Notes under the pieces: generated by a model | Database searches by the model: none | The model's input: the letters and a program-made list of their open reading frames with translations, nothing else | What the model was told of the DNA's origin: nothing | Shown: positions 17,232 through 33,362 of the stretch, piece after piece | Layout: each line of letters begins with the position of its first letter | How positions within the stretch are numbered: the first letter of the stretch is position 1 | Assembly (NCBI GenBank): GCA_963839205.1 | Contig: CAWITU010000002.1 | Span: 772-64,771, forward strand | DNA length: 64,000 bases | Direction: 5' to 3' | Origin: an uncultured bacterium | GTDB lineage: Bacteria > Patescibacteriota > Minisyncoccia > Phycocordibacterales > CAWITU01 | Program-made: the position numbers and the translations under genes

Positions 17232-17366
17232 ATGTCATTCACATATAAACCAAAAAAACGAAAGAGAAGCAGAAGTCACGGTTTTCTCAAAAGACAGAAT
17301 ACTCCAGGTGGTAAGAAGACCATCGTCAGAAGAATGAGAAAAGGTAGAAAGAAACTCACTGTTTAA
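17232..17366 (+). CDS. rpmH: 50S ribosomal protein L34
   Basis: [44 protein letters not shown] (44 aa). The ORF-track entry 17148-17366 has a spurious N-terminal extension. Confidence 0.9.
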
Positions 17367-17367
17367 G

Positions 17368-17703
17368 ATGATTCCAACTAAAAATAGGATAGGTAAAACT
17401 AACTTTGATAAAATAATGCAAAGTAGTAAAGTTGTGTCCTCTCCCCACTTCTCTCTTCGAGTATCCAGAACTGACATTTCAAGAGAACCACTTGTAGCGG
17501 TGGTTGTTTCAAAAAAAATATCTAACAAAGCTGTGACTCGAAATTTTATAAAAAGAAGAGTCAGGTCAATTTTGGAAGAAATTCTTGATATACTTAACCC
17601 TCAAGTAAGGTTAATTATTTTTCCAAAAAAAGGGGCTGATATAATTTTGTTCGCTTCTTTTAAAAAAGAGTTACTTGATCTAATAAAACCATGTATTTCC
17701 TAA
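17368..17703 (+). CDS. rnpA: ribonuclease P protein component
   Basis: 111 aa directly after rpmH, with the RNR-like basic motif SKKISNKAVTRNFIKRRVR. Confidence 0.85.
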   Translation: MIPTKNRIGKTNFDKIMQSSKVVSSPHFSLRVSRTDISREPLVAVVVSKKISNKAVTRNFIKRRVRSILEEILDILNPQVRLIIFPKKGADIILFASFKKELLDLIKPCIS

Positions 17704-18410
17704 AACTTATATTTTATACTCCCCTCTACAACGCTTTGGTCTTTTTAATCCAGCACGTTCCATCTGCTGACCTTGGGTTTGCAGTGATTGTTTTAACTAT
17801 TTTAGTTCGTTTAATTATTGCTCCACTTAATCTAAATGTTATTAAGACTCAAGTTAAACTTCGAGCGCTTGAACCGGAACTCGCTGCGCTTCGAAAGAAA
17901 TATGAAGGAGACAAAACTAAAGAAGCTGAAGCCCTCTTTGCGTTTTATCGAGAGAATCATGTAAATCCTTTTGGTGGAATTTTACCTCTACTTATTCAAA
18001 CACCAATTCTTATCTCTTTATATTTTATTTTTAGAAGTTCTGGACTTCCCCACATAGATGGAACTCTTTTGTATCCTTTTGTTCATTTACCAAGCATGGT
18101 AAATGTTCAATTTTTGAATATCATCAATATTATTCAAAAAAGCCTTGTTTTAGCGGCTTTTGTGGCTATAACCCAGATTATTCAAGTACGTTTTTCGATT
18201 CCAGCCATGCCAAAAGTTGAGGGAAAATCTTCATTTCAAAACGATTTAGCCAAAAGTATGAATCTTCAGATGAGATACACCTTACCTCTTATGACCGCCT
18301 ATATTTCCTACATAACCTCTGGAGCTGTGGCTCTTTATTTTATAACAAGCAATCTTTTCTCTATAGCCCAAGAAATTTATGTTAGAAAAACTATAAGGAA
18401 GAAGAGCTAG
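17691..18410 (+). CDS. yidC: membrane protein insertase YidC (short Gram-positive type)
   Basis: 239 aa, multi-TM, with FAVIVLTILVRLIIAPL, NPFGGILPLLIQTPILISLY, and conserved rpmH-rnpA-yidC synteny. Confidence 0.9.
   Translation: MYFLKLIFYTPLYNALVFLIQHVPSADLGFAVIVLTILVRLIIAPLNLNVIKTQVKLRALEPELAALRKKYEGDKTKEAEALFAFYRENHVNPFGGILPLLIQTPILISLYFIFRSSGLPHIDGTLLYPFVHLPSMVNVQFLNIINIIQKSLVLAAFVAITQIIQVRFSIPAMPKVEGKSSFQNDLAKSMNLQMRYTLPLMTAYISYITSGAVALYFITSNLFSIAQEIYVRKTIRKKS
17859..17895. repeat. intragenic near-perfect hairpin (9 bp + 1-nt bulge) in yidC
   Basis: TTCGA-GCGC ... GCGCTTCGAA, encoding LRALEPELAALRK. Confidence 0.6.
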
Positions 18411-19718
18411 CATTCAACTGAAGTCCCCAAAGACTCAAATCTCTTTTATTCATGAATGTAAGATAATCTTCTTTGCTATCAAGAGATAGATTGATTGCAT
18501 CAATATCTCCATTAGAAATTTGTCTAAGTGGGGCTAAGTCTTTTGTTACTCCTGTTTTGGTATTAATCATCCAAATAGAATCAGAAAAAGAAACTATCCC
18601 TTGGTACCACTGATCAGGGTATGTTGCCCGTGGTATAGAATCTGGTACAGCACAGTAAACTACGGAGTTATTTAACTGACTCCAAACACATTTTTCCGGA
18701 AGAGTTTTTAATGTAATTGGAGTGGTGTTTTCGTTTGAAATATTTAGTAAGCCAGAATTAAAAGTTTGAGCATCTGTATTGCTGTCAGAATAAAAGCCAA
18801 GTTTTAAATCTGGTGAAACTGACATGGTCAGTCCAGCGATATCCCCAAGAATTTTATTTAATGAATTTGTTTGGGTATTGAAAAGATATGAATAGCCATT
18901 TACTCCACCAGAGGCTTTCGTTGTAAATACTAATGTATTAGTCGATGGCCATAGAACCTGCCACTCATTTATGGGTGAGCTCCACACAGGACTCTGTTTG
19001 GTACCATCAACATTAGCTATAACCCCAGCACCTGAAGATTTAAAAAGGAAGAAAAACTTATTTTGTAGAGGAGATGGAACTATTTCTGATATGTCTTTTG
19101 AAAGAAGAGAGGCCGTTAGAGTATCAAAACTTGTTGTAGCGGTTGATGTTGAAGTAGGGGGAGCTATAAGGTGGGCATAATAAGTCGAAATGGTGTCTGT
19201 GTCCTCGTTTTCAATTGTCTGGATAAGTAAAGAATTTCCAGTATTATCAAAATAGGCGTTGTAAACTTTCGGGAAGGTTGTGTTTGAAATCCTATCAACT
19301 ACCCAGCTGCTAGTAGCAGTTTCGTATATATTACCAGTGGCTCTATCTATATAACGTATGAATGTCTCAAGATTTTTATGAGTGACTATTTTTGTGCTAC
19401 TAGTTGAGACTGTTGAAGTAGAAATTACGGTTCTATCAATAAATGTCTCTCCCCCAACAGGCGCAGTACTTATTTCGCGAAGGGTTGGTATGGGTGTATT
19501 TATGTTTTGAGTTGAACTTCCTGTTCCAGAATTTCCGAATTTGAGTTTGAGTTTGAGTTTTGGTTTGAACCCGAACTGCCAAGAAACGAATTTGCTGAAT
19601 TTCCATTAAAAGGAGAAGCCACTGATTGTTGTTGAAGATAATAATAAAAACCATATAACCCAAAACCAAGGATGATTATTATTGCAATTGTTATCAATGT
19701 GAGATTACTTTTGGACAT
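18391..19718 (-). pseudogene. membrane-anchored protein with beta-propeller-like C-terminal region; one frameshift next to an NS-repeat
   Basis: The N-terminal TM ORF 19500-19718 continues in another frame (GNSGTGSSTQNINTPIPTLREISTAP...) with no stop through to ORF 18391-18987. The frame change falls at about 19530-19545, beside the (TTTGAG)3 repeat. Confidence 0.7.
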
Positions 19719-19732
19719 GATTATATTTTACA

Positions 19733-20366
19733 CTAATTTGCAGAAGGAGTTCCTATTGTTATTGAACCACTTTGTAAGGGGGGGAATGCATTTGAACTCG
19801 GAGTAATATTTAAACCGGTACCAGATTGATTAGTATTCACATCTAAACCCGTTATATCAAATAAATTTGGACCAAGGGTTGTTCCCGATGGTGTTACAGT
19901 CATATGAATAATTTGATGCATTAGGGGCTAATGGGGCTGTGACAGTTATTGGTGACATCGCTGCGGGTGATGCCGTACTCAGCGCCCCGGTGAGTATCAA
20001 CCGACTGGGGATTGATAGTTGTTTTTAGTATCTTCGGATCAATCGTATACAAAATTAGATACGAACATAAAGCCAAGAGTAGTCCCCACAGAGCTGACTG
20101 AATCCTCTCCTTCCTTCTGACTTCCCCGATATGGCATCTGTAGACATATATTGAATACCTCCAATTACAATCATGATAACCGCTAGACCGCAGGCGACGC
20201 CAAGGCCCGCGTAGAAGACACTGTTCAGGTAGGAGCTAAGGTCGGTTTGAGTATTAGCCGCTTCAGTACCTATAGCTTGGAGGGGTTGATATCCCTGGGC
20301 AAAGCTGGTAGTTGGTAGTAAGAATAGGATGTTTGATATTAAAAATAAGATATATTTTTTAATCAT
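19733..20366 (-). pseudogene. T4SS pilin-like protein, paralogue 1 (frameshifted)
   Basis: Signal peptide MIKKYILFLISNILFLLPTTSFAQG plus the shared core LSSYLNSVFYAGLGVACGLAVIMIVIGGIQYMSTDAISGK. After GKSEG the paralogous sequence (KERIQSALWGLLLALCSYLILYTIDP) continues in another frame. The tail ORF is 19733-19921. Confidence 0.65.
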
Positions 20367-21086
20367 ATTTATTACTAATTGACAGTAATCGTTAAACTAC
20401 CTGATTTAGAACTGTTTCCATTACCAGGCGACCAGGCTCCTATAGCCTGTTGCTGCCGCCAGAGAAATTTCTCCATATGCAGGACCGTGGTCTCCGACGA
20501 TTGCATTTACAGACAGCCCTGTCGCGCTGTTAGTTATAGTTACTGGGGTACCTAAAGGTATTGAACTATCGCTTGGTACAACAATATAATAACTAGTATT
20601 AGCATCTAGACCACCAAGAGAGGTTGCTGATTGATATGTTGGGTCATTAAATGGGGGTGGGTTTGTTCCGTCAGTATCGATAGCTATCCCGTTAGTTGTT
20701 ATAACAGTCTGTGGATTACCATCTGGACCATCAACTGTTTCATAAGTACCACCGCTTCCAGCGTAATTAATTCCATCTACATTTGTTACGCCCGGATTAT
20801 ACGGCGGTGCCGATGTATTCAATGTACCCGAGGTGTCTGTAGATTGAAGAGTCAAAGTCGTATTCAATATCGTCGGATCAATCGTATACAAAATTAGATA
20901 CGAACACAAAGCCAAGAGTAGTCCCCACAAAGCTGACTGAATCCTTTCCTTTCCCTCCTCTTTCCCCGATATGGCATCAGTAGACATATATTGAATACCT
21001 CCAATTACAATCATGATAACCGCTAACCCGCAAGCGACGCCAAGGCCCGCGTAGAAGACACTGTTCAGGTAGGAGCTAAGGTCGGT
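20034..21086. repeat. ~213-bp direct repeat (20034-20246 and 20873-21086), the duplicated pilin core
   Basis: The two copies are near-identical by eye and differ by a few substitutions. A 1-nt length difference in the CT-rich stretch causes the frameshift in copy 1. Confidence 0.85.
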
Positions 21087-21170
21087 GGTTGAAACGGATG
21101 CAGGCTCAGTGCCTATTTGTTGGAGTACTGTATAGTTTTGGGCTAACAATATTGTAAAAATAGGAAACAT
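20421..21170 (-). CDS. T4SS pilin-like N-terminal domain fused to a secreted GH75/RlpA-like hydrolase-type C-terminal domain
   Basis: Two TM helices as in TrbC/VirB2-type pilins. The C-terminus has IAIDTDG ... YYIVVP ... GTPVTITNSATGLSVNAIVGDHGPAYGEISLAAA, resembling the GH75 chitosanase D.DG / GE.S..A pattern or DPBB lytic domains. Confidence 0.6.
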   Translation of the reverse strand: MFPIFTILLAQNYTVLQQIGTEPASVSTTDLSSYLNSVFYAGLGVACGLAVIMIVIGGIQYMSTDAISGKEEGKERIQSALWGLLLALCSYLILYTIDPTILNTTLTLQSTDTSGTLNTSAPPYNPGVTNVDGINYAGSGGTYETVDGPDGNPQTVITTNGIAIDTDGTNPPPFNDPTYQSATSLGGLDANTSYYIVVPSDSSIPLGTPVTITNSATGLSVNAIVGDHGPAYGEISLAAATGYRSLVAW

Positions 21171-21191
21171 TAGAAGAAGTTTTTGACTTGG

Positions 21192-22216
21192 TTAAATGTG
21201 AGTGAAAATTGGTTTGAAGCACTTTCTAGAAAATTGGAAACGCTCCCTAAGGCATAGAGATATGGAAGCATTTCCGTTTTGGTTATTTTGATTTCTAAAA
21301 ATCATTTCATCTTGAGAAGTTGGAACAGAGATATTGCTTCCATTAAGTTGCCATGTATAGGTAATATCTGGGTCAGTCCTTGTGAGTATTACCAAAAAAA
21401 TAAGGAAAAGCTTCGAACTTTACTTCTTGATCTCCAAGATTGTAGGAATTATTTATAGCTTTATTAAATAAAATTCCATATAAAGGATTGTCTTCATAAA
21501 CCAAAGCTTGCTCCGGCGAAGTTCCTAAAGTGATAAATTTTGAAGCTGATAGAGAACCATCGGTAGAAGTGACATCAACTCGGATAAGTATAGGATTAAT
21601 TATAATGAGTTCCTTGGACAGTTAAAACATTTTTTCCATAGCCTGATTTATCTCCCAATACCGTAGTATCTTGGCTCCAAGTATAAATTAGTTTTTTTGG
21701 ATTCACTGGATTTCCATTTGAATCAATAAAACCAGGCATCGCCACAAAAGAAACAGTACCTACTGGAGGGAAAAGTGCTTTCCCTTCATAGAAAGGTGGC
21801 ACATAAGAATTGGCTTGCCAGATAATATCTAAATCTTCTGGAGTAATTGGGATATCTTTGGTCACAGAAGTTACCATCAGGGGTCTGTATTTGAGCAGAT
21901 ACATCACTTAATTGACCTTTACCGCCAACAGTAAAGGTGTAAGTCTTATCTCCTATTCCCGTTTGAACAACTTTTCCATTAACTGACCAAGTTATAGATG
22001 AAGAATCAATATTGGATGTATAGTCTGCCAAGGCAATTGTGACAGTATCGTATGGGGCAGGTATTTCTGGGTCAGTAGTGACAGTTACTTCCACCTTGAG
22101 AAAGTTGTGGAAATTGCTATCGATAAAGCTTGGTCAGTAGAATTAGTTGATTGAGCGAAGGAAAGACTTGGAATAAATATTAAGGTAAATACTATAAGAG
22201 ACAAGCCTTTTTTCAT
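21192..22216 (-). pseudogene. secreted repeat (Ig/PKD-like) protein, multiply frameshifted
   Basis: Signal peptide MKKGLSLIVFTLIFIPSLSFAQ at 22216. The fragments 21786-22094, 21596-21907 and 21192-21395 join only by frame changes (for example VSAQIQTPDGNF|VTKDIPITPEDL). Confidence 0.6.
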
Positions 22217-22223
22217 GTCTTTA

Positions 22224-22706
22224 TTATACAACGTCTTCACCCATGGCTCTAGCAGCCTTATCCATGTTTTTCTTTAATATTTTTCCAACTAAAGATTTTT
22301 TCAGAGCCTCTTCTTCAAGCTTAGTGAATAGAACAACCAAACCTATATCTAATGTCCAAAGTGATATTATACCTCCTGTTAATACTTCAATAGCAAAACC
22401 ACCAAAAAATGAAACAGCAGTTCTTGTGCCTGATAAATTTATTCCTCGCATTTTAAAAAAAATATAAAAGAGGAATTCCGCTGACCAATCAATCGCTTCA
22501 TTAGCAATTTCACCCAAAACATATTCACCAGCCAATGCATCAATACTGTATTCTAAAACATCAAGACAAACACAAACAACCATTAAAGGTATCCAAACAC
22601 TGTTTGGTAATTTGCTGTCAGGTAATTTAGTTTGTCTTTTATTTTCTAGATCCTGTCTTTTTTGCCAGGAGGGATTTTCTTTTAATTCTGGCGATTCGTA
22701 AGCCAT
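22224..22706 (-). CDS. integral membrane protein (160 aa), island-encoded
   Basis: Intact ORF with 3-4 hydrophobic helices, tightly packed between virB4 and the secreted-protein gene. Confidence 0.6.
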   Translation of the reverse strand: MAYESPELKENPSWQKRQDLENKRQTKLPDSKLPNSVWIPLMVVCVCLDVLEYSIDALAGEYVLGEIANEAIDWSAEFLFYIFFKMRGINLSGTRTAVSFFGGFAIEVLTGGIISLWTLDIGLVVLFTKLEEEALKKSLVGKILKKNMDKAARAMGEDVV

Positions 22707-22710
22707 GAAA

Positions 22711-24555
22711 TTATTTGTTTAAATCTTTCTGCTCATTTTCTAATTTAGTTTGTTTGAAAGCTAGTATTTGGTGTGGATCAGAAGTAATAATTTGATCTTC
22801 AGTATAGGAAGCAATAATTTTGATGGCGACATGTTTTAGACCAGCAAAGAATATTCCCTCTCCTACATCTGATTCAAGAAGAAGATATTTTTCTTCATCT
22901 GTTAGGTTAAAGGTTCTTTGAACTTCATCAATTGAAGATGGGGATTGTTTAAGTAGAATTTGAATTGAGGAGTTTGTAATAATTGGAAGACCATATGGAG
23001 ATTTTAGGAAGTCCTCAACGTCTTGAGTAATTGTGGCGAGCCCCAAATAATATTTTCTTCCTCTTTTTGCAAGGCTCAAAAGAAATGAGGCAGTATCTTC
23101 TGATTTCATCATCCACCAAGCTTCATCAATAACAAGTAATCTTTTTTTCAATTCTTTTCTAATAGCATTCCAAATAAAATGCATGACGATGTACATGGCA
23201 ATTGGTTTTAATTCATCTTCCATATCACGAACTGAAAAGACTACGAATTTTTTGTTGATATCCACGTTTGTTGGCCTATTGATGAAACCAGCCCAAGTTC
23301 CTTTTGTATATTTTTCTAAACGTTGTACCAATGATTCCCCTCCTTCCATTCCAGCTAGAACTAATTCAAAGTCGGACATAAGTGGTGGTGCAACCTCAGC
23401 AAAATTTGATTCTGGAGTAATGTCTTTTAGAGCATATGTTTCGGTAATAGCTCGGTCAACAATTGAATCTTCTTCAGGAGTTAAGTCCTCCTAACATGAT
23501 TCGGAATAGACCAACCAGGTTAACAATGTTTGAGCGCAAAACATCGGCGGGCGATTCGTCTTCTCTGGCAGTAGGTAGGTCAAACGGATTAATGTGGTGT
23601 TCGGAGGTAAGCGAAATATTGAAGTATCGCCCGCCGGCTGCTTCAGCAAGATATTCGTATTCTTTTTCTGGGTCAATGACAATAACATCAGTATCAAACA
23701 TGAGAGATCGTAAAATTTCTAGTTTGGTTGCGTATGATTTACCAGATCCAGCTTTAGCAAAAGTCACAGAGTTGTAGTTTTCCAAGAGAAAATCTATCAA
23801 AAAGAATTAAACTTGAATTGTGTCGGTTAACTCCGTAAAGAATTCCTTTGTCGGATGTAAGGTCAAATGAAGTAAAAGGAAAAATACTAGAAAGTGGTGA
23901 AGAATTTAGTTTTGAATGCACATCCAAGCTCATCTGATGCAATTGGCATAACACTTCTAAAACCTTGTTCTTGTTGAAAAAGAGCTGGTTTTACATAAAC
24001 TAATTTAGCTTCAAGAATTGATTTGATTTCAGATTCAATTTTATCAAGTTCTCCTTGGCTGTCAGCATAAACAGAAATATATAATCCAACATCAAAGATT
24101 CTCTCTTGGGCTTGTTGTAAATCGTCTCGAAGTTTTTCAAGATCTTGGTAAGCAGTGTCTAATACGGGATCTCTAACTAACCCCTTCTCTTCTCTCATAT
24201 GAATTTGACTTTGAACTTCAGCCACTTTCTTTTGAAATTGTCGAAGAATTGTCGCTGTATCAATTGGATGAATGAATATAGAAATATCAAAGATTTTATC
24301 AAGATTGATTATTGGAGCAAACCAGCTTTCTGATAGAAATCTTGGGTATGAAATGATAAAAAATGTTCTGACAATTTTATCTCCAAAACTAAGTTCTCTA
24401 GGAGTAATCTTTAATGCCGATGGAGCAATAATATCTTTCAATTCCAAAATACCTGCATCATAAATATCCTGTGGAAGAATAGAGGTTATTGGTGTAGTTT
24501 TGGACTCTTGTTTTTTAAAAAAATCGCTTATTTTCATATTATTGGTTTTGATCAA
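22711..24555 (-). pseudogene. virB4: VirB4/TrbE/PrgJ-like type IV secretion ATPase, split into 4 frames
   Basis: Four fragments. 23887-24555 is the VirB4 middle domain (YPRFLSESWFAPIINL). 23754-23954 reads FPFTSFDL..ILYGVNRHNSSLILFDRF. 23474-23800 carries Walker A AKAGSGKSY. 22711-23379 plus upstream carries Walker B LLVIDEAWWMM and ATITQD. Three frame changes are needed. Confidence 0.85.
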
Positions 24556-25198
24556 GCGGGATAGGTTTATCTACATCCCCTGGATTAAATATTTTATAAT
24601 AGAGTTCAACTAGTTCTTCTGTACCAAGCTCAACAACTCTAATTCCACAACGAACTAGTCCTTGTTCAACAACGCTAATTCTTTGATCAAGTTGAGTTTT
24701 ATTATCGTCAAAATTTTGGTTTTTTTCATCTGCTTCAGATTTCTTATCTTTTTTCTTGAACAAACTAGCTCCAGGAATTTGAGAGGTGTTTTGGAGGGCT
24801 GCTGGAGAATATGGTACGACAATGAAAAAACTTTTAGTCATAATATTGACGGTTTCAGTGAAACTTTTGATGAATTCAATATATTCTTTGATTTGAATTT
24901 TCATCAAATCCCCCATTTGTTCCTTCTGTCTTTCTTCAAGAAGAGCGATGTATGGGCGAATATCTAATCTTCTTGATTCAACAAAAATTTGAATTGAAAA
25001 ATTAAGAGAGTTTAGAAAATTTTGAAATTGTAGAATAATTCCTTGCTGTTCATCCGAGCTTTTTAGAGCAAAGTTTAAAGATGAAGCCATGACTATTGCT
25101 CTAAGCGAATTATCTTTCATCACAACTACCCCATCATGTATTTCTTTGATGGGAATAAAGTCTTGGGTTGCTTTTGAAGTTTGAGCGGCTGTGGCCAT
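24539..25198 (-). CDS. VirB4 N-terminal-domain-like protein (possibly the 5' part of the same disrupted virB4)
   Basis: DFIPIKEIHDGVVVMKDNSLRAIVMASSLNFALKSSDEQQGIILQFQNFLNSL is the typical N-terminus of Gram-positive VirB4 homologues. It overlaps the next ORF by 17 nt. If joined, the ATPase would be about 830 aa. The likely start is the ATG at 25198. Confidence 0.6.
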   Translation of the reverse strand: MATAAQTSKATQDFIPIKEIHDGVVVMKDNSLRAIVMASSLNFALKSSDEQQGIILQFQNFLNSLNFSIQIFVESRRLDIRPYIALLEERQKEQMGDLMKIQIKEYIEFIKSFTETVNIMTKSFFIVVPYSPAALQNTSQIPGASLFKKKDKKSEADEKNQNFDDNKTQLDQRISVVEQGLVRCGIRVVELGTEELVELYYKIFNPGDVDKPIPLDQNQ

Positions 25199-25408
25199 AT
25201 TTAAATAATTATAACCTATTTGTGCTTCGTGGAATTGGTGCAACTTCTTTTGAGTAGGCTGTTTCGTTAATATCCAGACTCCAACTTAAATCTTTTAATT
25301 TACTTTCAGAAAGTTTTGGTACAGCGATATTAGCATTTCCAGCCAAACCACTTTGTTGGGTGTTTGCCTCGGGCTTTCTTTTCAGATTTTTTCCAAAGAT
25401 AGAGTTTG

Positions 25409-25660
25409 CTACCCAAGAAAATATTTAACCCCAGCCTCTAGAACCTCAATAAAAGGTTTACTATTAATTTTGTACATTGCGAGAGCAACACCAAAAGCTA
25501 CTGCAACAGCCATAAATGGAATGGCTAATATAAGTGGTAAGAATTTGTAGAAAATAAAAGCTAGGCCTACACCGCCACCTAAATAAATGAATTGTTTGAA
25601 GGTAAAGGGACCAAAAATCTTATCTTCAACTTCAATAAATTGAGGAACTTGGTATCTCAC
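25409..25660 (-). CDS. PrgI/VirB3-like small membrane protein
   Basis: MRYQVPQFIEVEDKIFGPFTFKQFIYLGG followed by two TM helices matches the PrgI family pattern. A plausible C-terminal continuation (SKLYLWKK...) lies in other frames down to about 25216. Confidence 0.7.
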   Translation of the reverse strand: MRYQVPQFIEVEDKIFGPFTFKQFIYLGGGVGLAFIFYKFLPLILAIPFMAVAVAFGVALAMYKINSKPFIEVLEAGVKYFLG

Positions 25661-25678
25661 CTTTTAAGTATATCACTT

Positions 25679-26464
25679 TTAATTCATTGGCTCCCTGTAG
25701 GGATCAACAGTGTATGATTTTGTAGATGGTTCTGCGTTTGGTTTAACAACAATTTCTTCTTTAGCAGAGCTAACAATCGAATTTAGTTTATTTTGAACAA
25801 TACCTATTGTTTTCACGTTATCTTTGGCTGGAGTTCCTGTCTGTATAGGAGTAGTAGCATTAATCTCTGGTGGTAGTTTAATTGGGGCATTAATTTCAGT
25901 GATAACATCTTGAGGAAGAGCCTCAACTTTCGGTTTTGTTTCAGGTTGGTTGTCCAGTACATTTATTGATGGTGTGGCTATCGGTGGGATGATTGGTTTT
26001 GTCTCTTGAGTAATTGGGTGAATAGTCTCAGTTGGGTTCTCTATCTCATTTAGTATTTGTTCTGGAGTTGGATTTGCTTCAGGAACTTTGTTTTCGGCAG
26101 GAATTGGGTTGATTTGTGTTGGTGGAACAACATTTTCATTGTCATTTTTGTATACTTCTTCAAGATATTGTCTAATTGGGACGAAGATTTTTAAATTTAT
26201 TTCCTCAGTAATTTGATTAGCTTGAATAGGGTTTATTTTTAAATTGTCCTGTAAGTTTCTGGCATAGTTATCTGGGCTTTCCAAACCAAGCATCACCAAC
26301 AAAGTTTCGTCCTCTAATAATGCCCCTTGATCAATGTGTAATTTCTTTTCCTTAACAATTTCCTGAAGAGTCGGTCGTAGGTTCGATGAAGTAATTGCAT
26401 CCTGTAGACCCTTTGGTAATGACGAGAATCTCTCTTCTATTTTGTTTTTTACGTTTTGATCCAT
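25679..26464 (-). CDS. hypothetical protein with Pro/Thr/Ile-rich C-terminal half
   Basis: Intact 261-aa ORF in the island operon. No family recognised. Confidence 0.55.
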   Translation of the reverse strand: MDQNVKNKIEERFSSLPKGLQDAITSSNLRPTLQEIVKEKKLHIDQGALLEDETLLVMLGLESPDNYARNLQDNLKINPIQANQITEEINLKIFVPIRQYLEEVYKNDNENVVPPTQINPIPAENKVPEANPTPEQILNEIENPTETIHPITQETKPIIPPIATPSINVLDNQPETKPKVEALPQDVITEINAPIKLPPEINATTPIQTGTPAKDNVKTIGIVQNKLNSIVSSAKEEIVVKPNAEPSTKSYTVDPYREPMN

Positions 26465-26467
26465 TGT

Positions 26468-28978
26468 TTAAGATTTATGTTCCCCTCCCCCACCTCCACT
26501 TCCCCCCACGTCGTCTTTTTCCTTTTTCGATTCACCCCCCTTTTTGCCCGCAAAATCTTTAAGTTCATCAAGCAACCTGTCTTCTTTAGATTTCCTAAGT
26601 TCTTTTCTTATATTTAATGCCGCTTCTTTGGAGGCTTGAGAATGGGCGGTAGAAGTTGAGCAATCTTGGTTTTTCTAATTGTTTTGAGTAGTTAAGCTGT
26701 CTAGTTTTTCCTTGGTCTCTAATTATTTTTATCTTATTATCTGCTTGATTAAGCTGTTGATCAAATTCTTTTTGTTTTGTTTCAATAGTATTTTTTGTTC
26801 GGTCATTAATTTCCTTAATCTTGTCGTCAAAAGCACTCAATCTTTGTGCTATTGGTTGTTTTGTTTTTGTTATCACATCACCCTCTATCTTCAAAGATTC
26901 TATTTTGTTTTGATACTCAGCCCGCTTGTATGGATTTGTTTCTAGCGCACCCATACTTTTATTGTGCTCAAGTTCCTCCTTGATCTCAGACAATCTTTGA
27001 TTCATCTTCTTTTCTTCCTCAAGGTCTTTTTTATATTCACTGCCCTCTGAGCCCTCATTTAATGTTTTAAGTTCTAATTTACCTTTTTCTTCAATTTCTC
27101 TCTTTCCTTTCTTTTCAAACGTATCCTTATTATCATTAATTTCTTTCTTTCTTTCCTCGGTGGTGTCAATTTCTTTCTGTTCGTTGTAAGTTTGTTTTCC
27201 AATTTCTTTACTAAATTCTAATTTGGCTTTCTCATTATCTGATAGGGCTTTTCTGTATCCACCATCTTTTGCCTTTCCAAGGTCTCCTAGTGAACCAGTT
27301 ATAGCGCCAGTTACAGAACCCGCACGCGCGTCAAAACTAGATTTCGCAACCTTGGAGGTTCCTTTATACAAGAATCTAGTAAATGCATTGTTTGCTGCAC
27401 CCTCTTTGAGAAGTGCGCTTTTACTTTCTGCCCATGTTTCCGACTGTATTTCTTCCAATCATGGCAGTTCCTCCAAATACTGTTCTTCCTGCAAGTTTGG
27501 TTCCTGCATTTACTGCTCCCGATACGGCCGCTCCACCACTCGAGGCCATTGATTTTGAAATAACAAGTGAAGTAATAAGGAATCCCATTGCGATAACTAA
27601 ATGGAAAATAAATCCTGTTGCACAGGCCCAGTCTAATGCCCCGCCAGAAATGGTGCTTAGGAACCCAACCGCTCCATTTTGACCACTACACCCACTTCCG
27701 TTATTGAAATTATTTGAGCCAATGATTTGCAGTGTTACCCACATTAAAGCAAAGAAAACTACTGGAAATATACTCTGGTCAAATAAAGTTTTCCACCACT
27801 TCTCAGCAATCATAGAATTAGTTTTGGGTAGGATCATGCTCGCAAAAGCAACCGGCGAGACAATTATCAAGAAAACAAGAACAACATACCTCACAATAAA
27901 TAGTACACAAGCTATGAGTAGAACCACCCCGACAAATAAAAGAAGTCCTGACATTAATATCGATTGAATAAATGCTTGAACATAATTAGTATTGTTAAAT
28001 TGGATTGTGGACTGATTAACAGAAGTGCCGGTGGTTGTCTTTCCGCCAAGGAAAGACGAAAGGCCAAGATTTGAAAGAAAGGCGGTTGCTATTCCTCCTG
28101 ATGGGTCAAATCCTACCAAGGTGGCGCCAACTGAACCCTGTGCAGGAGTTTCAATTGCATTCAAAAAAGTTAAAGTTAAAATATTTGTCCCATCAATAAT
28201 TACTTCAGTGAAAAATAAACTGAAGTTGATTAATAAGGCAATAACAATAACCATACTTAAGATTTTTTTAGTATTAAAACTCTCAAGTCTCAAGATTAGG
28301 GCAATAGAAATATACAGGAGAATAAAGATGAAAAAGATATTTGAAAGGTCTCTGAATGTAGACCACGTTGTATTGACAATCGGCCCTAGGTCGCTGGCAC
28401 CTAAATGTGTTGCTAGATTGGCTACTGTATAGCCGACTACAAAATTAAGTAAAAAGGCAATTATTGTGACAACCATACCAACTATCGCAAAAACAGCTAA
28501 GGCTATCGCTTGAAATAATGAACAAACTATTCCAGCTGGGTCTGGAACAACTAGCCAGACCGCGGACTGGCACCCTGCACTTTTGGTGGAGTTGCCACTT
28601 CCTGTTGTGCCAGTGGTTTGGGAGGCGGCGGCTACGCGGTACGGCGGCGGCAACGGCGGTAGATCCAAACGAAGGTGTTGTAGCGTTACTTGTACTATTT
28701 GATCCAGTTTGAGATGAATCGAGTGATGATCCATTAGGTAAAAGAGTAGTATCGTAAGGATTAGTACCTGTTTCGCTACTCCCGCCAGTACCCACATCAA
28801 GTGTCGGAGTTGAACCTAGGTCTGAAGATGCCCCAGTAGTGTCACTACCAGTAGTATTTACTGGGTTACCGTTTGCATCAAAAATTTGGGCAAAAACAGT
28901 AAAAGGTGATACAAACGAGGCTGTAATTAATATCCCCAAAACTAATTTTTTATATTCTTTCTTCATTATTAATATCAA
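26468..28978 (-). pseudogene. large polytopic membrane protein (VirB6/TrbL-like by context) with a long coiled-coil K/E-rich tail; at least 3 frameshifts
   Basis: The signal-peptide ORF 28445-28978, the multi-TM ORF 27421-28800 and the coiled-coil ORF 26595-27458 connect only by frame changes. A further shift at AAGAAAAGA extends the tail (ELRKSKEDRLLDELKDFAGKKGGESKKEKDDVGGSGGGGGEHKS*) to 26468. Confidence 0.6.
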
Positions 28979-30256
28979 CTATGATTTGCTAAGAATTTGA
29001 CCGACAGCTTTTTGAATCAGGGCTTGCACCAATACATTTACCACCTGGTCGAATTTTTGCGCTGCGACCAATCGTAGATTAGGAAGATTTAGAGTTGTCT
29101 CTGGTGTTGAATATTTAATTAGACTTCCTGGGAGTGGTGATAGCACAATTGGTATCCGTTGAGAGCTCTCAAAACCAAATTGATTACTCCCTTGTCCAGT
29201 TGACAATTAGTTTGATTAAGAGTCCCATTGATTTCGCTGGAGTTGTTGTTGTTGTAGTTCTTTTGCTTGATCAATTTGCCTCTGTGCTATCTGACTATTT
29301 ATGATTGAAGAACTAAGATAATTATTCCCCGGATTAGCAAAACCAGCTCCAAAAGCATTAAGATTAAAGGAATTTGGGTCTCCATAATAAAACCCTTGAG
29401 TAGTTTGTCCCACCACTTAAATAATTTACAATATTATTATTAATTCCTTCGCTACTATTGTTGTATTGAGCCATTATCCCTTGTAATATTTGTTGTTGAA
29501 ATTGTTTTACACCAGGATCTGATATACCATTATTAGCTTTCTGAAAGGCACTAGCAAAACCAAGTGTCTGTTGGTCGGCGATATTGGTGAAGAATTGTTG
29601 TGGGTTATTTACGAAAGCTGGGTTACCATTAAAACCACTCTTAATCCAATTAATAGTGCTATTTCCTATAGCTTGAATCAAAGCGTTACCAATACAAAAT
29701 GCCACAGCATCCCAGCTCGGTAATGAAATGGATATAGGAAGACCGAAAAGTGAAATTACTGTTCCTGTATGTGCTGCTGTAGCAACTGAACTCTGGGCAT
29801 TTAAAGTACCTTCATCTTGGCTAGGTACTGCCTTTATATTAAGGGCAGATGAAATAGCGTTAGAAAGGGTATTTATCCCTTGGTTAACTACGGACTGAAT
29901 AGCTTTTGAGAGAAATAATCCAACTGAACAACCGCTAGCTTGAAGTGCGATATCGCCAGGATTCGGTGCTGCGGTAGTGCTTTGTCCATCTGATCCAGCT
30001 TGAGTCCTTGAGATTTAGTGAAGTTGGGTTGTCGGATCAATTGTGTTTGCGTTATTTGCAGTAGTATTAAATTGGTTAAGTTGTAGACCGTTGCGTTGAG
30101 TTGACGGTACCTACGGTTGAAGTTGGATTTAGTTGAAGATCAGAATTTGGTAATTGTGAGGATAGTGTAGCGGTTTGAGCAAAAACCGCTAAAGGAGAAA
30201 TAAATAAGCAAGTGACTAAGTACGGCTGAGATTATTTTAATTTTATTTCTTTGCAT
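28979..30256 (-). pseudogene. secreted Q/N-rich hypothetical protein, multiply frameshifted
   Basis: ATG at 30256 with a signal-like N-terminus. The fragments 29364-29705, 29216-29416 and 28979-29206, plus the unlisted 5' part, join only via frame changes. Confidence 0.5.
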
Positions 30257-30260
30257 TTTA

Positions 30261-31055
30261 TTATTGGTTCCAAATAAAACCAGCTTCCTTTGCACTAAAA
30301 ATTATACCATTTTGGGCGAAATATGTTGAAAAGGCTGTCATGGTAGAAGTTGAGCTATTTTGTATGTTATTAGCATTTTGCATTGCAACTACAGCTTTTA
30401 GTGGGTCAGCTTGATAATCATTTAATTCTCTAAGATCCACCGCTAAATCATGGTAATTATTTATTGTTTGTAAATCAGTTGAAACAAAATCATTTGGAGT
30501 TGCGATTTGAATAAGTTGACTAGCTATGGCGTCATATTGGTCTGCTATAGCATTTACATCCCCACTATACTTCTTAGGATTATTAGCTATGAGAGTTAGA
30601 TTAGTGATTTCTATTTGGGCAAAAGCATTACCATAATTTCTAATAGCAGTTTTATCAGTTGGATTAAATGTCTTTATGTCGCTAATTGAATACATTTCTG
30701 GCTGGCCAATGGTGCTGATCTCCGTAGAAAATGAATCAACTAAGGCATTTTGTGTGTCTGTTGCATCAAGACCAGTTTGATCAAGATTCACATAACTGGA
30801 AAATGCTGTTTTAGCGAATCTGTCAGTTAGAGTGTCAGTCGCATTAAAATCATCTCCAGTAAAAGCGGTGTCGGGATTAAATAGGAAAAGTGTTGAACTG
30901 CTTGAGTCCACAGAAAGTGGCTGGGTTGAATTATCATACGTTAATTCTCCAGCAATTTGATTTTTTGATGGAAAATATTTTATATAAATAGAGCCGCCAA
31001 TAACCAAGATGGCAACTAGAATTAAAGAAATTATTTTTTTACTTGGAGAGTGCAT
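30261..31055 (-). CDS. membrane-anchored hypothetical protein (264 aa)
   Basis: Intact ORF with N-terminal TM helix IISLILVAILVIGGSIYI. It is the first gene of the minus-strand island operon. Confidence 0.6.
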   Translation of the reverse strand: MHSPSKKIISLILVAILVIGGSIYIKYFPSKNQIAGELTYDNSTQPLSVDSSSSTLFLFNPDTAFTGDDFNATDTLTDRFAKTAFSSYVNLDQTGLDATDTQNALVDSFSTEISTIGQPEMYSISDIKTFNPTDKTAIRNYGNAFAQIEITNLTLIANNPKKYSGDVNAIADQYDAIASQLIQIATPNDFVSTDLQTINNYHDLAVDLRELNDYQADPLKAVVAMQNANNIQNSSTSTMTAFSTYFAQNGIIFSAKEAGFIWNQ

Positions 31056-31099
31056 TTACTTGTAGAAATTATATAAAATATCGTGATACAATACAATTA

Positions 31100-32134
31100 A
31101 TGAAGACTAACATCTCTTTAGTTTTAGCGGTTTTATTCTCTCTTGTTGCAACGAGCGTTTATGCTTCGACAAATTCATTTAATTTCTCTAGAAATTTAAG
31201 TCTTGGTTCGTCAGGAAGTGACGTTCAACAGCTTCAAATTATTCTTAATCAAAATTCTGCAACTAAAATAGCACTCTCCGGCCCAGGTTCTCCAGGCCAG
31301 GAGTCAACTTATTTTGGTAATTTAACCAAACAGGCAGTTATCAAATTTCAAAATCTATATTCTTCTAAAATCCTTATCCCATCAGACCTTACGACAGGTA
31401 ATGGCTTCGTTGGAGCTTTAACTAGAAGCGTTTTAAATTCCCTTTCACAAGTTTCAACTAATGTGCCAGCTATTTCAGCGACAACAAATAGTCTTGTTCT
31501 AACAAATATAACGACTTCTCCTGTAAATAATCAAAATAATTCAACAACTACAGCTTCAACCACCCCAACAGTTTTTGTTTTTTCAGTCAGTCCTTATCAA
31601 GTGAAACCTGGAGGTACTATTCTTATAAATGGTTTTGACTTTAGCACCAGTTCGAATAAGCATATATTTGGATAATAATTTGGTTGGAACTATTTCTTCA
31701 ACCTCAACAACCGAACTCAATTTTCAAATTCCCCAAAAAATTTCGCCAGAATACATACACAATTAGAGTAACCAATAATTTGGGAGATAGTAGTAATGAT
31801 TTTCAACCTGTTAGATTTATTGTTACTAATTCTCCCTTCCAGCTCCGCGAATTTCTTCAATTTCTCCATCAAGCGATTAATGCTTCATCAACTATTACAA
31901 TTACTGGTACTGGTTTTACATCAAAATGGAAATGCTATTTTCACTCCCTTTGGAGATAATTACTTCTTTAATTTCTAACGGGACAACACTCCAATTTACT
32001 TTTGCTAGCTCTTCAATCAAACGGTTTTAAATGCTGTTCCTCAGGCTAAAGGTTCAACTTTTCAGATACCAATATATGTTTCAAATATGAATGGGACGAG
32101 TAATTTAGAAATGATAAATTTTCAAATCCAATGA
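31100..32134 (+). pseudogene. secreted peptidoglycan-binding (PG_binding_1-like) protein with IPT/TIG-like repeats, frameshifted
   Basis: Signal peptide MKTNISLVLAVLFSLVATSVYA. GSSGSDVQQLQIILN...TYFGNLTKQAVIKFQ is a PG-binding motif. The downstream repeats (ILINGFDFS, ITITGTGFTS) lie in three different frames. Confidence 0.6.
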
Positions 32135-32513
32135 AAAAAATTTTACTCTCATTTATATTGATTTATTTCTTTATTTGGCCCGATAATTGTTTCGGCCCAG
32201 ATCAATCATCAGAAGTACCTTTTGGTGGGCCACTTCTTTTTACTATTACTGTGGCTGTAGTGGAAATATATTAAATTTTATTTTTAATGATGAAACGCTT
32301 ACACCAATAACTTTAGTATTTCAGCCAGGATTATCTATTTTATATTCTTATTACAATATTACTTACTCCTGGCACACAGGAACTTGGAGATTATATTCCG
32401 GGAGCTGGTCAGTGTTGGATTCCGATTGGTAACGGAAATTGTGCTTACATTCCTTCTTTGGTGCCTATGGTAATTTGCCAGGAACTGGTACAACATTAGT
32501 GCCAACTCTCTAG
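32131..32513 (+). pseudogene. small secreted Cys-containing protein, frameshifted
   Basis: The ATG overlaps the previous stop (ATGA). Signal-like MKKILLSFILIYFFI, then VPFGGPLLFTIT / CGCSGNILNFIF... / CWIPIGNGNCAYIP in different frames. Confidence 0.4.
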
Positions 32514-33286
32514 AATTTTTCTCCAATCTTCTAAGGTTATATCTTCCGCTCTGACTTTAAGGTCAATATTATTTTTTTTAAATATTTCTTCTAGTTTTGT
32601 TTTAGGATAATCTCTTGGAAAGATTTCCAATTAGCATTTTGCGTTTGCTGGAAAAGCCAAGCTTGATTAGTTCGAAAAACTTTTTTTTGTCTATTTTGTT
32701 TTCGGTAAAAAAGTTTTTTGAGATGTTTCCAATCTGAATTATCGCCGAGTCAACTTTAGGACTCGGCGAGAAGAATCTTTTTGAAATAGTCTCAATGTAT
32801 TTTGGTTTTCCATATGCTTTTACGCTTATTGAGAGAATGCTTTCCTTATTATCTCTAGCAACAATTCTCTGAGCCACTTCTTTTTGAACAAGGACAACCA
32901 TTGTGATGGTTGATTATCTGATTCAAGAAATTTTCTAAAATTGCCCCAGTTATGTAATAAGGAATATTTGCTACCAACTTATACTTGCCAGTATTTTCTA
33001 GAAAATCCAAATTAGATTTCAAGAATATCATCGTGAACTAAGATTAATTTTTTGTCCTTAATTTCTCTTGAGAATTTTTCTTGAAGAACTGGCATCAATT
33101 CGTTGTCTTTTTCAACCGCAATAACTTGCGCCGCCTCTTTAAGTAAGAACTTCGGTTAAAGTGCCATATCCAGGCCCTATTTCCAGAACAATATCGTCAT
33201 TGACAATTGAGGCGGCGCCAGCAATTTTCTCCAATGCCCAGCTTGGATTTAAGAAAATTTTGACCTAATGATTTTTTAGCTTTCAT
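32496..33286 (-). pseudogene. rsmA: 16S rRNA (adenine1518/1519-N6)-dimethyltransferase RsmA/KsgA, at least 5 frameshifts
   Basis: MKAKKSLGQNFL, VLEIGPGYGTLTEVL, KLVANIPYYITGAILENFL, MVVLVQKEVAQRIVA and a C-terminal ...DLKVRAEDITLEDWRKILE are all present, but in six successive frames. Confidence 0.8.
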
Positions 33287-33362
33287 TTTTTTGTAATATT
33301 GAAATTAAAAATCTATAAAAATTGCTTTAGCTCCTGTTGGTCTTTCTTCTGCCTCCAGTAAA

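What the first reader, a model, noticed from the sequence alone, without database searches (positions are those of the whole stretch)
18391..32513. ~14 kb Gram-positive-type T4SS-like island lacking relaxase and coupling protein
One minus-strand operon (31055 down to 18391) plus two divergent plus-strand genes encode the components below.
- A VirB4-like ATPase.
- A PrgI/VirB3-like protein.
- A VirB6-like polytopic protein with a roughly 300-aa coiled-coil tail.
- Two TrbC/VirB2-type pilin-like proteins.
- Several signal-peptide proteins: Ig-like repeats, Q/N-rich, beta-propeller-like.
- A PG-binding/IPT protein and a small Cys protein.
No relaxase, VirD4, VirB11, integrase or oriT-like feature is visible. 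The island sits directly next to yidC near the origin. For a reduced-genome, probably episymbiotic organism, such a minimal apparatus could mediate DNA uptake or host-cell contact rather than conjugation. Most partner proteins have no recognisable family.
Basis: partly seen in the sequence, partly recalled or inferred. Interest (0 to 1): 0.8.

Follow-up and report, generated by a model that had tools for sequence, protein, structure and literature searches.

The report
Known Patescibacteria secretion locus, error-ridden copy
This is the conserved type IV secretion gene cluster that nearly all Paceibacteria (ultra-small, host-dependent bacteria) carry next to their replication origin, already described in 2023 and 2025; in this record it is peppered with about 35 single-base indels that are almost certainly sequence errors.

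Summary
No relaxase or coupling protein was found among the window's ORFs of about 240 aa or more.

It is not an island. In 80 Paceibacteria species the same cluster sits in the same place, uvrD–ksgA–cluster–yidC–dnaA–dnaN. This relaxase-less, origin-proximal Patescibacteria T4SS has been published (Wang 2023; Quiñonero-Coronel 2025), including the idea that it serves host interaction or import rather than conjugation.

They hit 10 of the 14 cluster genes plus ksgA and uvrD; the other ~49 kb has one or two. I read these as assembly errors:
- The rebuilt VirB4 keeps 221 of 222 invariant residues.
- A same-species contig has an intact gene where the window has five indels, against 16 synonymous and 5 conservative changes.
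- Most sited indels are single-base insertions outside repeats.

One possibly new point: one pilin carries a C-terminal GH75 (chitosanase-type) domain with its full catalytic tetrad, in a family of 61 clusters.

The parts
22711..24537 (-). VirB4-family ATPase (about 608 aa when rebuilt), split into 4 frames by three +1 insertions at about 23927, 23783 and 23485
   Evidence: PF19044 P-loop_TraG E 6.8e-18, DUF87 and AAA_10. 85-91% identity to intact proteins of 605-640 aa. Insertions located against three orthologue DNAs. 221 of 222 invariant columns kept.
24539..25198 (-). TrsD / TraC-like protein (related to the VirB4 N-terminal domain); intact
   Evidence: 71-74% identical to orthologues of 217-218 aa that carry PF26593 TraC-like. 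The 2025 survey reports TrsD as the most abundant partner of Patescibacteria VirB4.
25245..25660 (-). PrgI/VirB3-like small membrane protein, two frame breaks at about 25408 and 25375
   Evidence: PF12666 E 6e-8. Orthologues are 144-155 aa. tblastn pieces lie in frames -1 and -3. Insertion sited.
26468..28966 (-). VirB6-like polytopic membrane protein with a K/E-rich tail of about 290 aa that looks like a coiled coil; three frame breaks at about 28637, 27456 and 26660
   Evidence: AF2 model of the core has pLDDT 78 and pTM 0.75. The four best Foldseek PDB matches are R388 TrwI/VirB6 (8rt9_F E 5e-3, probability 1.0). TrbL PF04610 is sub-threshold in 4 of 10 orthologues and precomputed in family members. 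Frame map.
20375..21170 (-). Pilin 1: VirB2-like T4SS pilin domain (residues about 31-96), a linker, and a C-terminal GH75/DPBB glycoside-hydrolase domain; one late frame break at about 20445
   Evidence: PF18895. Tail against V-Csn E 0.0046. Family profile against V-Csn E 2.8e-16. Glyco_hydro_75 in 12 of 62 and T4SS_pilin in 32 of 62 members. D-D-D-E kept. Late shift found.
19733..20366 (-). Pilin 2: paralogous VirB2-like pilin without the GH75 tail; three frame breaks at about 20110, 19995 and 19925
   Evidence: Core nearly identical to pilin 1. DNA direct repeats of 136 and 110 nt at 93% and 87% identity, with offsets of 840 and 839. tblastn to orthologous pilins lies in two frames.
18391..19718 (-). 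453-aa-family secreted or anchored protein (N-terminal TM segment plus a body that may be a beta-propeller); one frame break at about 19.56-19.60 kb
   Evidence: 48.5% identical to the L005 orthologue. Present in 62 of 80 loci. DPPIV_N in 3 of 26 and PD40 in 1 of 26 orthologues, all sub-threshold. No PDB sequence match.
21192..22216 (-). 349-aa-family signal-peptide protein with repeated beta-rich modules (possibly Ig-like); at least 7 frame breaks
   Evidence: Present in 74 of 80 loci. Five indels proven against the same-species contig L097, at 22132, 22117, 22088, 21873 and 21606. Two more at about 21369 and 21255. BiPBP_C E 1.2e-3 in an orthologue.
22224..22706 (-). 160-aa membrane protein, family unknown; intact
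   Evidence: 32-38% identical to orthologues of 139-160 aa. 97.5% identical to P0126 from an independent sample. No Pfam hit.
25679..26464 (-). 261-aa protein with a Pro-rich C-terminal half, family unknown; intact
   Evidence: 33% identical to the L001 262-aa orthologue. No Pfam family.
28979..30256 (-). Q/N-rich signal-peptide protein (375-554-aa family); at least 3 frame breaks plus in-frame stops
   Evidence: tblastn pieces in frames -3 and -1 against L001 and L004 orthologues. Three-frame reading. No Pfam family in orthologues.
30261..31055 (-). 264-aa bitopic protein (N-terminal TM segment plus a probably helical ectodomain), first gene of the operon; intact
   Evidence: 41-43% identical to orthologues. 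No PDB profile match. AF2 model unusable, pLDDT 36.
31100..32134 (+). Divergent PG_binding_1 + IPT/TIG secreted protein; at least 4 frame breaks
   Evidence: PG_binding_1 22.7 bits in the window. TIG E 2.9e-9 and PG_binding_1 E 2e-4 in the L001 orthologue. Frames read.
32131..32499 (+). Small Cys-rich secreted protein (162-170-aa family); at least 2 frame breaks
   Evidence: Three-frame reading compared with the L001 and L004 orthologues.
32505..35290 (-). Flank, not part of the system: ksgA (32505-33295, at least 4 frame breaks) and a UvrD-like helicase (33308-35290, breaks at about 33865 and 33358). Marks the upper edge of the damaged zone.
   Evidence: tblastn and blastx frame maps. Indel sites. 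RrnaAD and UvrD Pfam domains in orthologues.
14447..18410 (.). Flank, not part of the system: dnaN (14447-15550 -), dnaA (15757-17109 -), rnpA (17368-17703 +) and yidC (17691-18410 +). All are intact and mark the origin-proximal position.
   Evidence: Full-length single-frame tblastn matches. Pfam domains of orthologues. Frame map.

Best explanation
The region is the chromosomal, origin-proximal type IV secretion locus that is a core feature of Paceibacteria (Patescibacteria/CPR). It is not a mobile island.

Shown by homology or fold:
- A VirB4 ATPase with its TrsD partner.
- A PrgI/VirB3-like protein and a VirB6-like protein.
- Two VirB2-like pilins, one of which displays a GH75-type glycosidase domain.
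- A set of lineage-specific secreted or wall-binding proteins.
- No relaxase and no coupling protein in view.

Inferred mechanism:
- VirB4 is held at the membrane by PrgI and VirB6 and powers pilin extraction and assembly of a short pilus or stalk through the cell's own wall.
- The secreted proteins anchor this structure in peptidoglycan and contact the host.
- The machine serves the epibiotic lifestyle and not conjugation.
- My committed guess, at about 40%, is a contact-dependent import conduit for host DNA or other macromolecules. This is by analogy with the coupling-protein-less ComB and Ced import systems.
- The main alternative, at about 35%, is export of effectors or hydrolases.

Separately, the roughly 35 single-base indels that break the genes between 19.55 and 33.87 kb are errors of the deposited assembly. 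They are not biology (about 85-90%).
For: Identity:
- Pfam hits for VirB4, PrgI and the pilin.
- VirB6 fold match.
- TraC-like/TrsD orthologues.
- 8000 or more VirB4 homologues; the named and titled top hits are Patescibacteria MAGs.

Core locus: identical gene order uvrD-ksgA-cluster-yidC-dnaA-dnaN in 80 species.

Not conjugative:
- No relaxase or T4CP among 20 long window ORFs (237-800 aa) scanned with Pfam.
- None in the precomputed Pfam annotations of four orthologous loci.
- The literature reports the same.

Function: the T4SS genes and pilin array are essential for epibiotic growth of Southlakia epibionticum, and comEC is dispensable.

Indels are errors:
- The rebuilt VirB4 keeps 221 of 222 invariant and 324 of 326 columns conserved at 95% or more. 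Intact orthologues miss 0-4 invariant columns.
- Same-species contig L097 (97.8% DNA identity, independent sample) has an intact 349-aa-family gene where the window has 5 indels. The substitutions there are 16 synonymous against 5 conservative non-synonymous.
- The breaks cross into ksgA and uvrD, which are unrelated to the cluster.
- Most sited indels are single-base insertions, and 4 of the 5 proven against L097 lie outside homopolymers.
- About 35 breaks in 14.3 kb compare with one confirmed and one possible break in the other ~49 kb.
- The fragments are the deposited record's own gene calls on one 279,057-bp contig.
Against: - No experiment exists for any Paceibacteria T4SS. Essentiality data come from Saccharimonadia, whose cluster differs in composition.
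- The direction of transport is unknown.
- A coupling protein could be encoded outside the 64-kb window.
- No VirB8-like component was found.
- For the error reading, I could not see reads or coverage.
- I cannot explain why errors would be confined to one 14-kb stretch.
- Direct same-species confirmation covers only 1.4 kb, that is 5 of about 35 sites.
Confidence: 0.82

Rival explanations
1. The frameshifts are real. In this strain the T4SS locus, together with ksgA and the end of uvrD, has recently been inactivated and is decaying. That would mean natural loss of a system thought to be essential for the epibiotic lifestyle.
For: The breaks are in the deposited assembly itself. They are heavily concentrated on the locus. 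One further frameshift exists elsewhere, in the trypsin-like protease at about 49.06 kb, so this genome may carry some true pseudogenes.
Against: - There is no amino-acid decay. VirB4 keeps 221 of 222 invariant columns.
- Against the same-species contig there are 16 synonymous and 5 conservative changes beside 5 indels in 790 bp. That indel-to-substitution ratio of about 0.24 is several-fold above what, from general knowledge, I take to be typical bacterial mutation spectra (roughly 0.1 or less); this was not measured here.
- From general knowledge, bacterial pseudogene decay is biased towards deletions at repeats. Here most sited indels are insertions outside repeats.
- The breaks span at least three unrelated transcription units on both strands.
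Confidence: 0.08
2. It is a horizontally acquired island, the remnant of an integrative conjugative element that lost its relaxase and coupling protein.
For: VirB4 of the Patescibacteria clade nests within the MPF_FATA class of monoderm conjugative elements, which suggests an ancient transfer into the phylum's ancestor.
Against: - Gene order and both flanks are the same in 80 species from several Paceibacteria lineages.
- There is no integrase, att-like boundary or compositional step at 18.4 or 32.5 kb.
- 99.3% of Patescibacteria VirB4 proteins have their closest homologue within the same class.
- Any acquisition predates the class.
Confidence: 0.03
3. The machine mainly exports material: effectors, wall hydrolases, or only the pilus as an adhesin. 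It acts on the host cell and does not import anything.
For: [quoted passage not shown]
- The pilin-GH75 fusion and the several Sec-signal partner proteins fit a surface-acting, wall-attacking apparatus.
Against: - From general knowledge, known effector-translocating T4SSs almost always use a coupling protein. None is near this locus.
- The partner proteins have their own signal peptides and would not need the T4SS for export (sequences).
Confidence: 0.35

Closest known systems
Patescibacteria-clade T4SS (Wang et al. 2023, Cell, Southlakia epibionticum SEML1_0006-0019; Quiñonero-Coronel et al. 2025, Microb Genom)
   Same: VirB4 + TrsD + PrgI/VirB3 + VirB6 + VirB2-like pilins. No relaxase. Chromosomal, next to dnaA/dnaN/ksgA/rnpA, as reported for Paceibacteria.
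   Different: - This record's copy is frameshifted throughout, which is probably artefactual.
- There are two pilins here, against the six-gene array of Southlakia.
- One pilin carries a GH75 domain that those papers and the two held supplement files do not mention.
- The Paceibacteria partner proteins (264, 554, 261, 160, 349 and 453 aa families) have no counterpart named there.
MPF_FATA conjugative T4SSs of monoderms (pCF10 Prg/Pcf, pIP501 Tra, pGO1 Trs)
   Same: - A VirB4, PrgI, polytopic VirB6-like (PrgH) core.
- The TrsD partner of the pGO1 subclass.
- No outer-membrane complex.
- A PG-binding or hydrolase accessory.
   Different: - Those systems have a relaxase, a coupling protein (PcfC/TraJ), VirB8-like proteins and surface adhesins, and they lack VirB2 pilins.
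- They are on plasmids or ICEs.
- Here the relaxase and T4CP tests are not met, pilins are present, and the locus is a fixed chromosomal one.
DNA-import T4SS relatives: Helicobacter pylori ComB and the crenarchaeal Ced system (CedA/A1/A2/CedB)
   Same: From my own knowledge, with Ced mentioned: a VirB4-type ATPase plus a VirB6-like membrane protein plus small pilin-like proteins, working without a relaxase or coupling protein.
   Different: - No sequence-level relationship beyond VirB4 was tested here.
- Import by the Patescibacteria system is a hypothesis only.
- ComB works in a diderm envelope and Ced in an archaeal one.
GH75 chitosanases (Pfam PF07335; V-Csn, PDB 7TVL/7TVM)
   Same: The pilin tail family matches V-Csn at E 2.8e-16 and keeps the D-D-D-E active-site positions. 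The fold is a double-psi beta-barrel.
   Different: - It is a minimal version without V-Csn's inserted domain (113 profile positions against 164 residues).
- It is fused behind a T4SS pilin.
- Its substrate and activity are untested.

Membership tests
Type IV secretion system (VirB4-based) | VirB4-family ATPase with a P-loop | tested here: met
   PF19044 E 6.8e-18, DUF87 and AAA_10. The Walker A motif GSGKS is visible. 85-91% identical to proteins that sources name VirB4/TraC.
Type IV secretion system (VirB4-based) | VirB3/PrgI-like and VirB6-like membrane components next to virB4 | tested here: met
   PrgI PF12666 E 6e-8. For VirB6, the four best PDB fold matches are TrwI/VirB6, and TrbL is sub-threshold or precomputed in family members. 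The window copy itself has no Pfam hit.
Type IV secretion system (VirB4-based) | VirB8-like bitopic component | tested here: inconclusive
   The 264-aa bitopic protein gave no PDB profile match and an unusable AF2 model (pLDDT 36). The literature also fails to find VirB8 in most Patescibacteria.
Type IV secretion system (VirB4-based) | Open, translatable genes in this sequence | tested here: not met
   About 35 frame breaks. 10 of the 14 cluster genes are interrupted. This is judged an artefact of the record.
Conjugative element (MPF + relaxase + coupling protein, mobile) | Relaxase (MOB) gene associated with the MPF genes | tested here: not met
   None among 20 long window ORFs (237-800 aa) scanned with Pfam, in the six frame translations of the cluster, or in the precomputed Pfam annotations of L001, L004, L005 and L099. 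The rest of the genome was not seen.
Conjugative element (MPF + relaxase + coupling protein, mobile) | VirD4/TcpA-type coupling protein | tested here: not met
   Same scans as for the relaxase. Only the 64-kb window and 10-kb flanks of relatives were examined. VirD4-like genes often lie far from virB4 in Patescibacteria.
Conjugative element (MPF + relaxase + coupling protein, mobile) | Variable insertion site with integrase or att boundaries | tested here: not met
   Same flanks in 80 species. The nearest tyrosine recombinase, at 42493-43539 and of XerC/D type, is 10 kb away.
Patescibacteria-clade T4SS (PMC12102498) | VirB4 belongs to the monophyletic Patescibacteria clade | tested here: inconclusive
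   No tree was built. All named or titled top homologues are Patescibacteria (Paceibacteria-type) MAGs at 79-91% identity, which makes membership very likely.
Patescibacteria-clade T4SS (PMC12102498) | TrsD, PrgI, VirB6 and VirB2-like pilins near virB4, with dnaA/dnaN/ksgA/rnpA in the neighbourhood | tested here: met
   compared.
GH75 glycoside hydrolase (pilin 1 tail) | Significant profile match and conserved D-D-D-E active-site residues | tested here: met
   Family profile against V-Csn E 2.8e-16. PF07335 in 12 of 62 members, best E 3e-8. The tetrad is kept in 58-61 of 62 members and in the window copy. Enzymatic activity cannot be tested here.

The most novel reading that the evidence does not exclude
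In this lineage the T4SS pilin itself carries the wall-cutting enzyme. A VirB2-like pilin is fused to a catalytically complete GH75 (chitosanase-type, double-psi beta-barrel) domain. That would put a glycosidase on the surface of the pilus or at the base of the channel.

This could stand in for the VirB1 hydrolase that most Patescibacteria T4SS loci seem to lack. Alternatively, it could cut GlcN-containing glycans, such as de-N-acetylated peptidoglycan, in the host wall to open the contact site.

The fusion family is shown here: 61 representative clusters, of which about half of the members carry a recognisable pilin domain. Its role is inferred. I found no report of it in the searchable literature.
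Probability: 0.35. Interest if true: 0.6.

Novelty: already known. Interest (0 to 1): 0.3.

Why it matters
The system matters. It is one of the few envelope machines that ultra-small, host-dependent Patescibacteria keep, and in Saccharibacteria it is essential for growth on the host. That is established knowledge, though, and this window adds one more copy.

The practical points are these:
- The locus in this deposited assembly cannot be taken at face value. Automatic annotation will report fragments or pseudogenes, and a naive reading could wrongly claim loss of the T4SS.
- The 'island' label would mislead comparative work.
- The pilin-GH75 fusion is a small, testable lead on how a monoderm T4SS with pili gets through peptidoglycan.

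Tried and rejected
- **Alternative genetic codes.** Recoding TGA, TAG or TAA does not repair the ORFs.
- **Finding the source record.** Exact look-ups of DnaA, YidC and P0121 returned no locus. The proteins are on record on a 279,057-bp NCBI/ENA contig.
- **Metagenome scan across VirB4 site 23783.** It gave 11 hits, all without the extra base. All are other species at 70-74% identity, so they do not decide the question.
- **P0312/L099 as a closer reference.** It is another species at 71% identity.
- **Profiles against PDB sequences.** The VirB6-like, 264-aa and 453-aa families found nothing.
- **AF2 of the 264-aa protein.** With a 2-sequence alignment the model was unusable, so the VirB8 question stays open.
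- **Codon-usage Viterbi frame tracker.** It was too noisy to count breaks, so the counts rest on homology and ORF structure.
- **My own errors, corrected.** An 'in-frame stop at 18988' was a misreading of ORF listings. YebC at 9192-9722 is a complete short form and not frameshifted. Pilin 1 is not intact but has a late frameshift.
- **The 349-aa family alignment.** It failed twice on stop codons in tblastn ranges and I dropped it.

Full report
**What is there**

The window is Patescibacteria DNA read in the standard code. Recoding any stop codon does not repair the ORFs. Between yidC (17691-18410) and ksgA (32505-33295) lies a co-oriented minus-strand cluster with two divergent plus-strand genes.

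Because the ORFs looked fragmented, I scanned whole-frame translations, not ORF calls. Pfam finds three families:
- PrgI (PF12666, E 6e-8).
- A VirB4-type P-loop spread over two frames (PF19044 E 6.8e-18, DUF87, AAA_10).
- A T4SS pilin (PF18895).

A VirB4 rebuilt across the frames is 85-91% identical to intact proteins of 605-640 aa. These come from thousands of contigs; the named ones are Paceibacteria/Parcubacteria, and some sources name the protein VirB4 or TraC. The ORF upstream (24539-25198) is the separate TraC-like/TrsD protein.

The VirB6 call was the weakest, so I tested it three ways:
- Sequence profiles found nothing in the PDB.
- 4 of 10 orthologues reach Pfam TrbL only below threshold.
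- An AlphaFold model of the core built from 81 homologues (pLDDT 78, pTM 0.75) has R388 TrwI/VirB6 chains as its four best PDB matches (best E 5e-3, probability 1.0).

I accept VirB6 homology on that basis. The labels for the partner proteins rest on much weaker evidence:
- 'beta-propeller-like': DPPIV_N in 3 of 26 orthologues.
- 'Ig-like': BiPBP_C at E 1.2e-3 in one orthologue.
- PG-binding/IPT: borderline in the window but clear in an orthologue.

**It is a core locus, not an island**

Intact relatives show the order ksgA, two divergent genes, then proteins of 263-276 aa, 375-554 aa, the VirB6-like protein, 189-262 aa, PrgI, TrsD, VirB4, 139-160 aa, 349 aa, pilin, pilin, 453 aa, and then yidC, dnaA and dnaN.

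A scan of one genome per species returned at least 580 species with this VirB4. In the 80 loci fetched, the order uvrD-ksgA-cluster-yidC-dnaA-dnaN is the same wherever the contig is long enough.

The rest of the window is housekeeping DNA: PolA, a PilB-like ATPase, RuvB, RuvC, PBP1, ComM, PNPase, RNase Y, Fpg and others. None of the 20 long ORFs scanned (237-800 aa) is a relaxase or a coupling protein. The only recombinase is XerC/D-like and lies 10 kb away. There is no compositional step at the borders.

**It is already known**

- Wang et al. 2023 (PMC10633639) showed by Tn-seq that the Saccharibacteria T4SS and its pilin genes are essential for epibiotic growth. They noted the lack of recognisable coupling and relaxase proteins.
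- Quiñonero-Coronel et al. 2025 (PMC12102498) surveyed 3,035 genomes. They defined a monophyletic Patescibacteria VirB4 clade nested in MPF_FATA.
- The same survey listed VirB4, TrsD, PrgI/VirB3, VirB6 and VirB2-like pilins as the widespread parts. It reported the near absence of relaxases, showed the proximity to dnaA, dnaN, ksgA, rnpA and rpmH in Paceibacteria, and proposed import of DNA or other macromolecules from the host.
- A 2025 review repeats this (PMC12857230).

**The damage**

Mapping intact orthologous proteins onto the window shows repeated frame switches inside genes.

Breaks by gene:

| Gene | Breaks |
|---|---|
| VirB4 | 3, all +1 insertions at about 23927, 23783 and 23485 |
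| PrgI | 2 |
| VirB6-like | 3 |
| Q/N-rich protein | at least 3 |
| 349-aa gene | at least 7 |
| Pilin 2 | 3 |
| Pilin 1 | 1 (late) |
| 453-aa gene | 1 |
| TIG gene | at least 4 |
| Cys-rich gene | at least 2 |
| ksgA | at least 4 |
| uvrD | 2 |

That is roughly 35 breaks between 19.55 and 33.87 kb. dnaN, dnaA, rnpA, yidC, PBP1 and the first 1.4 kb of uvrD are each in one frame. The other ~49 kb holds many long intact ORFs and only one confirmed break, in a trypsin-like protease near 49.06 kb. A second, near 5.1-6.0 kb, is possible.

All the fragments are the deposited record's own gene calls on one 279,057-bp NCBI/ENA contig. The indels are therefore in the public assembly.

**Errors or decay?**

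Four observations point to errors.

1. The rebuilt VirB4 keeps 221 of 222 columns that are invariant among 85 orthologues, and 324 of 326 columns conserved at 95% or more. Intact orthologues miss 0-4 invariant columns in a leave-one-out test.
2. An independent sample (Logan ERR10755936, L097, 1,376 bp) is the same species at 97.8% DNA identity. Its 349-aa-family gene is open for 262 codons. Against it the window has five single-base indels (22132, 22117, 22088, 21873 and 21606) and none in the adjacent 160-aa gene. The substitutions in that gene are 16 synonymous against 5 conservative non-synonymous. Purifying selection is evident, and an indel-to-substitution ratio near 0.24 is hard to reconcile with natural divergence.
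3. The breaks ignore functional boundaries. They run through ksgA and the end of uvrD and fall on both strands.
4. Most sited indels are single-base insertions, and 4 of the 5 proven against L097 lie outside homopolymers. From general knowledge, natural slippage mutations favour repeats and bacterial pseudogene decay favours deletions.

I put the error reading at 85-90%. I cannot explain why one 14-kb stretch is affected. A locally low-coverage or unpolished long-read segment is a guess. Only read mapping can settle it.

**How it probably works**

Shown: the parts list above, their conservation, and the absence of conjugation-specific genes in view.

Inferred from the families:
- VirB4 hexamers dock on PrgI and VirB6 at the membrane. 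They drive extraction of VirB2-like pilins and assembly of a pilus or stalk.
- The PG-binding/IPT protein and the secreted partners anchor or extend the structure through the wall and towards the host.

Without a coupling protein, the closest working analogies are the import systems ComB and Ced (my own knowledge; Ced is cited). I therefore favour a contact-dependent import conduit at about 40%, over export of effectors or hydrolases at about 35%. Nothing here tests the direction of transport.

**A possibly new detail**

The C-terminal ~140 residues of pilin 1 resemble a double-psi beta-barrel.
- A single-sequence search gave a borderline match to the GH75 chitosanase V-Csn (E 0.0046).
- An exhaustive search found 61 representative clusters with this domain.
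- Their profile matches V-Csn at E 2.8e-16.
- 32 of 62 aligned members carry a T4SS_pilin domain, and 12 reach Pfam Glyco_hydro_75 on their own. A few pair the domain with PG_binding_1 or CHAP instead.
- The D-D-D-E active-site positions defined for V-Csn (PMC9485262) are kept in 58-61 of 62 members, including the window copy.
- Among the 80 loci, only two other pilins share this tail, so it is sporadic.
- I found no mention of it in the T4SS papers, in their held supplements, or elsewhere in the library.

A pilin-borne glycosidase could supply the VirB1-type wall-cutting function that most of these loci seem to lack, or it could attack the host wall. That role is inference.

**Verdict**

The striking fragmentation is most likely an assembly artefact. 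Interest is low to moderate. It comes mainly from the caution about this record and the pilin-GH75 lead.

Noticed in passing
window 20375-20852 (-): The C-terminal domain of pilin 1 is a GH75/double-psi beta-barrel glycoside-hydrolase domain with the full D-D-D-E tetrad. It belongs to a family of 61 representative clusters, about half of them fused to T4SS pilins. I found no report of this in the searchable literature.
   Followed up: yes
window 22711-24537 compared with 14447-18410: VirB4 is far more conserved than the housekeeping genes beside it. Between the window and L004/L005 it is 85-91% identical in amino acids. The same genome pair gives DnaA 67%, DnaN 62% and YidC 64%, and the partner proteins only 25-50%. 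222 of about 607 VirB4 columns are invariant across 85 species.
   Followed up: partly
window 48786-49542 (-): A trypsin-like serine protease is split by one frame break near 49.06 kb. The His motif (TNAHV) and the Ser motif (GSSGG) lie in different frames. This is the only confirmed break outside the damaged zone.
   Followed up: partly
window 35548-36543 (+): A LysM + Peptidase_M23 protein lies just beyond uvrD. It is a wall hydrolase of the kind the 2025 survey lists among VirB1-associated domains, so it may be a functional partner of the T4SS.
   Followed up: no
window 20003-20246 and 20842-21086: The two pilin genes share direct repeats of 136 nt and 110 nt at 93% and 87% identity, which encode an almost identical pilin core. 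This suggests recent duplication or gene conversion. The offset changes from 840 to 839 exactly at pilin 2's frameshift.
   Followed up: partly
window 5105-6037 (-): In a locally GC-richer stretch (0.43), a signal-peptide ORF is followed by ORFs in other frames. Their products are rich in Pro, Thr, Gln and Cys and have no Pfam family. This may be another frameshifted secreted protein.
   Followed up: partly
window 9192-9722 (+): YebC/TACO1 is a short form of 176 aa. It keeps the N-terminal domain and the canonical C-terminal end but lacks most of the middle domain. It is complete, not frameshifted.
   Followed up: partly
window 6215-7945 (+) and 36540-38090 (-): A PilB-like T2SSE ATPase (type IV pilus) and a ComM-like Mg-chelatase-family protein lie in the same origin-proximal neighbourhood as the T4SS.
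   Followed up: no
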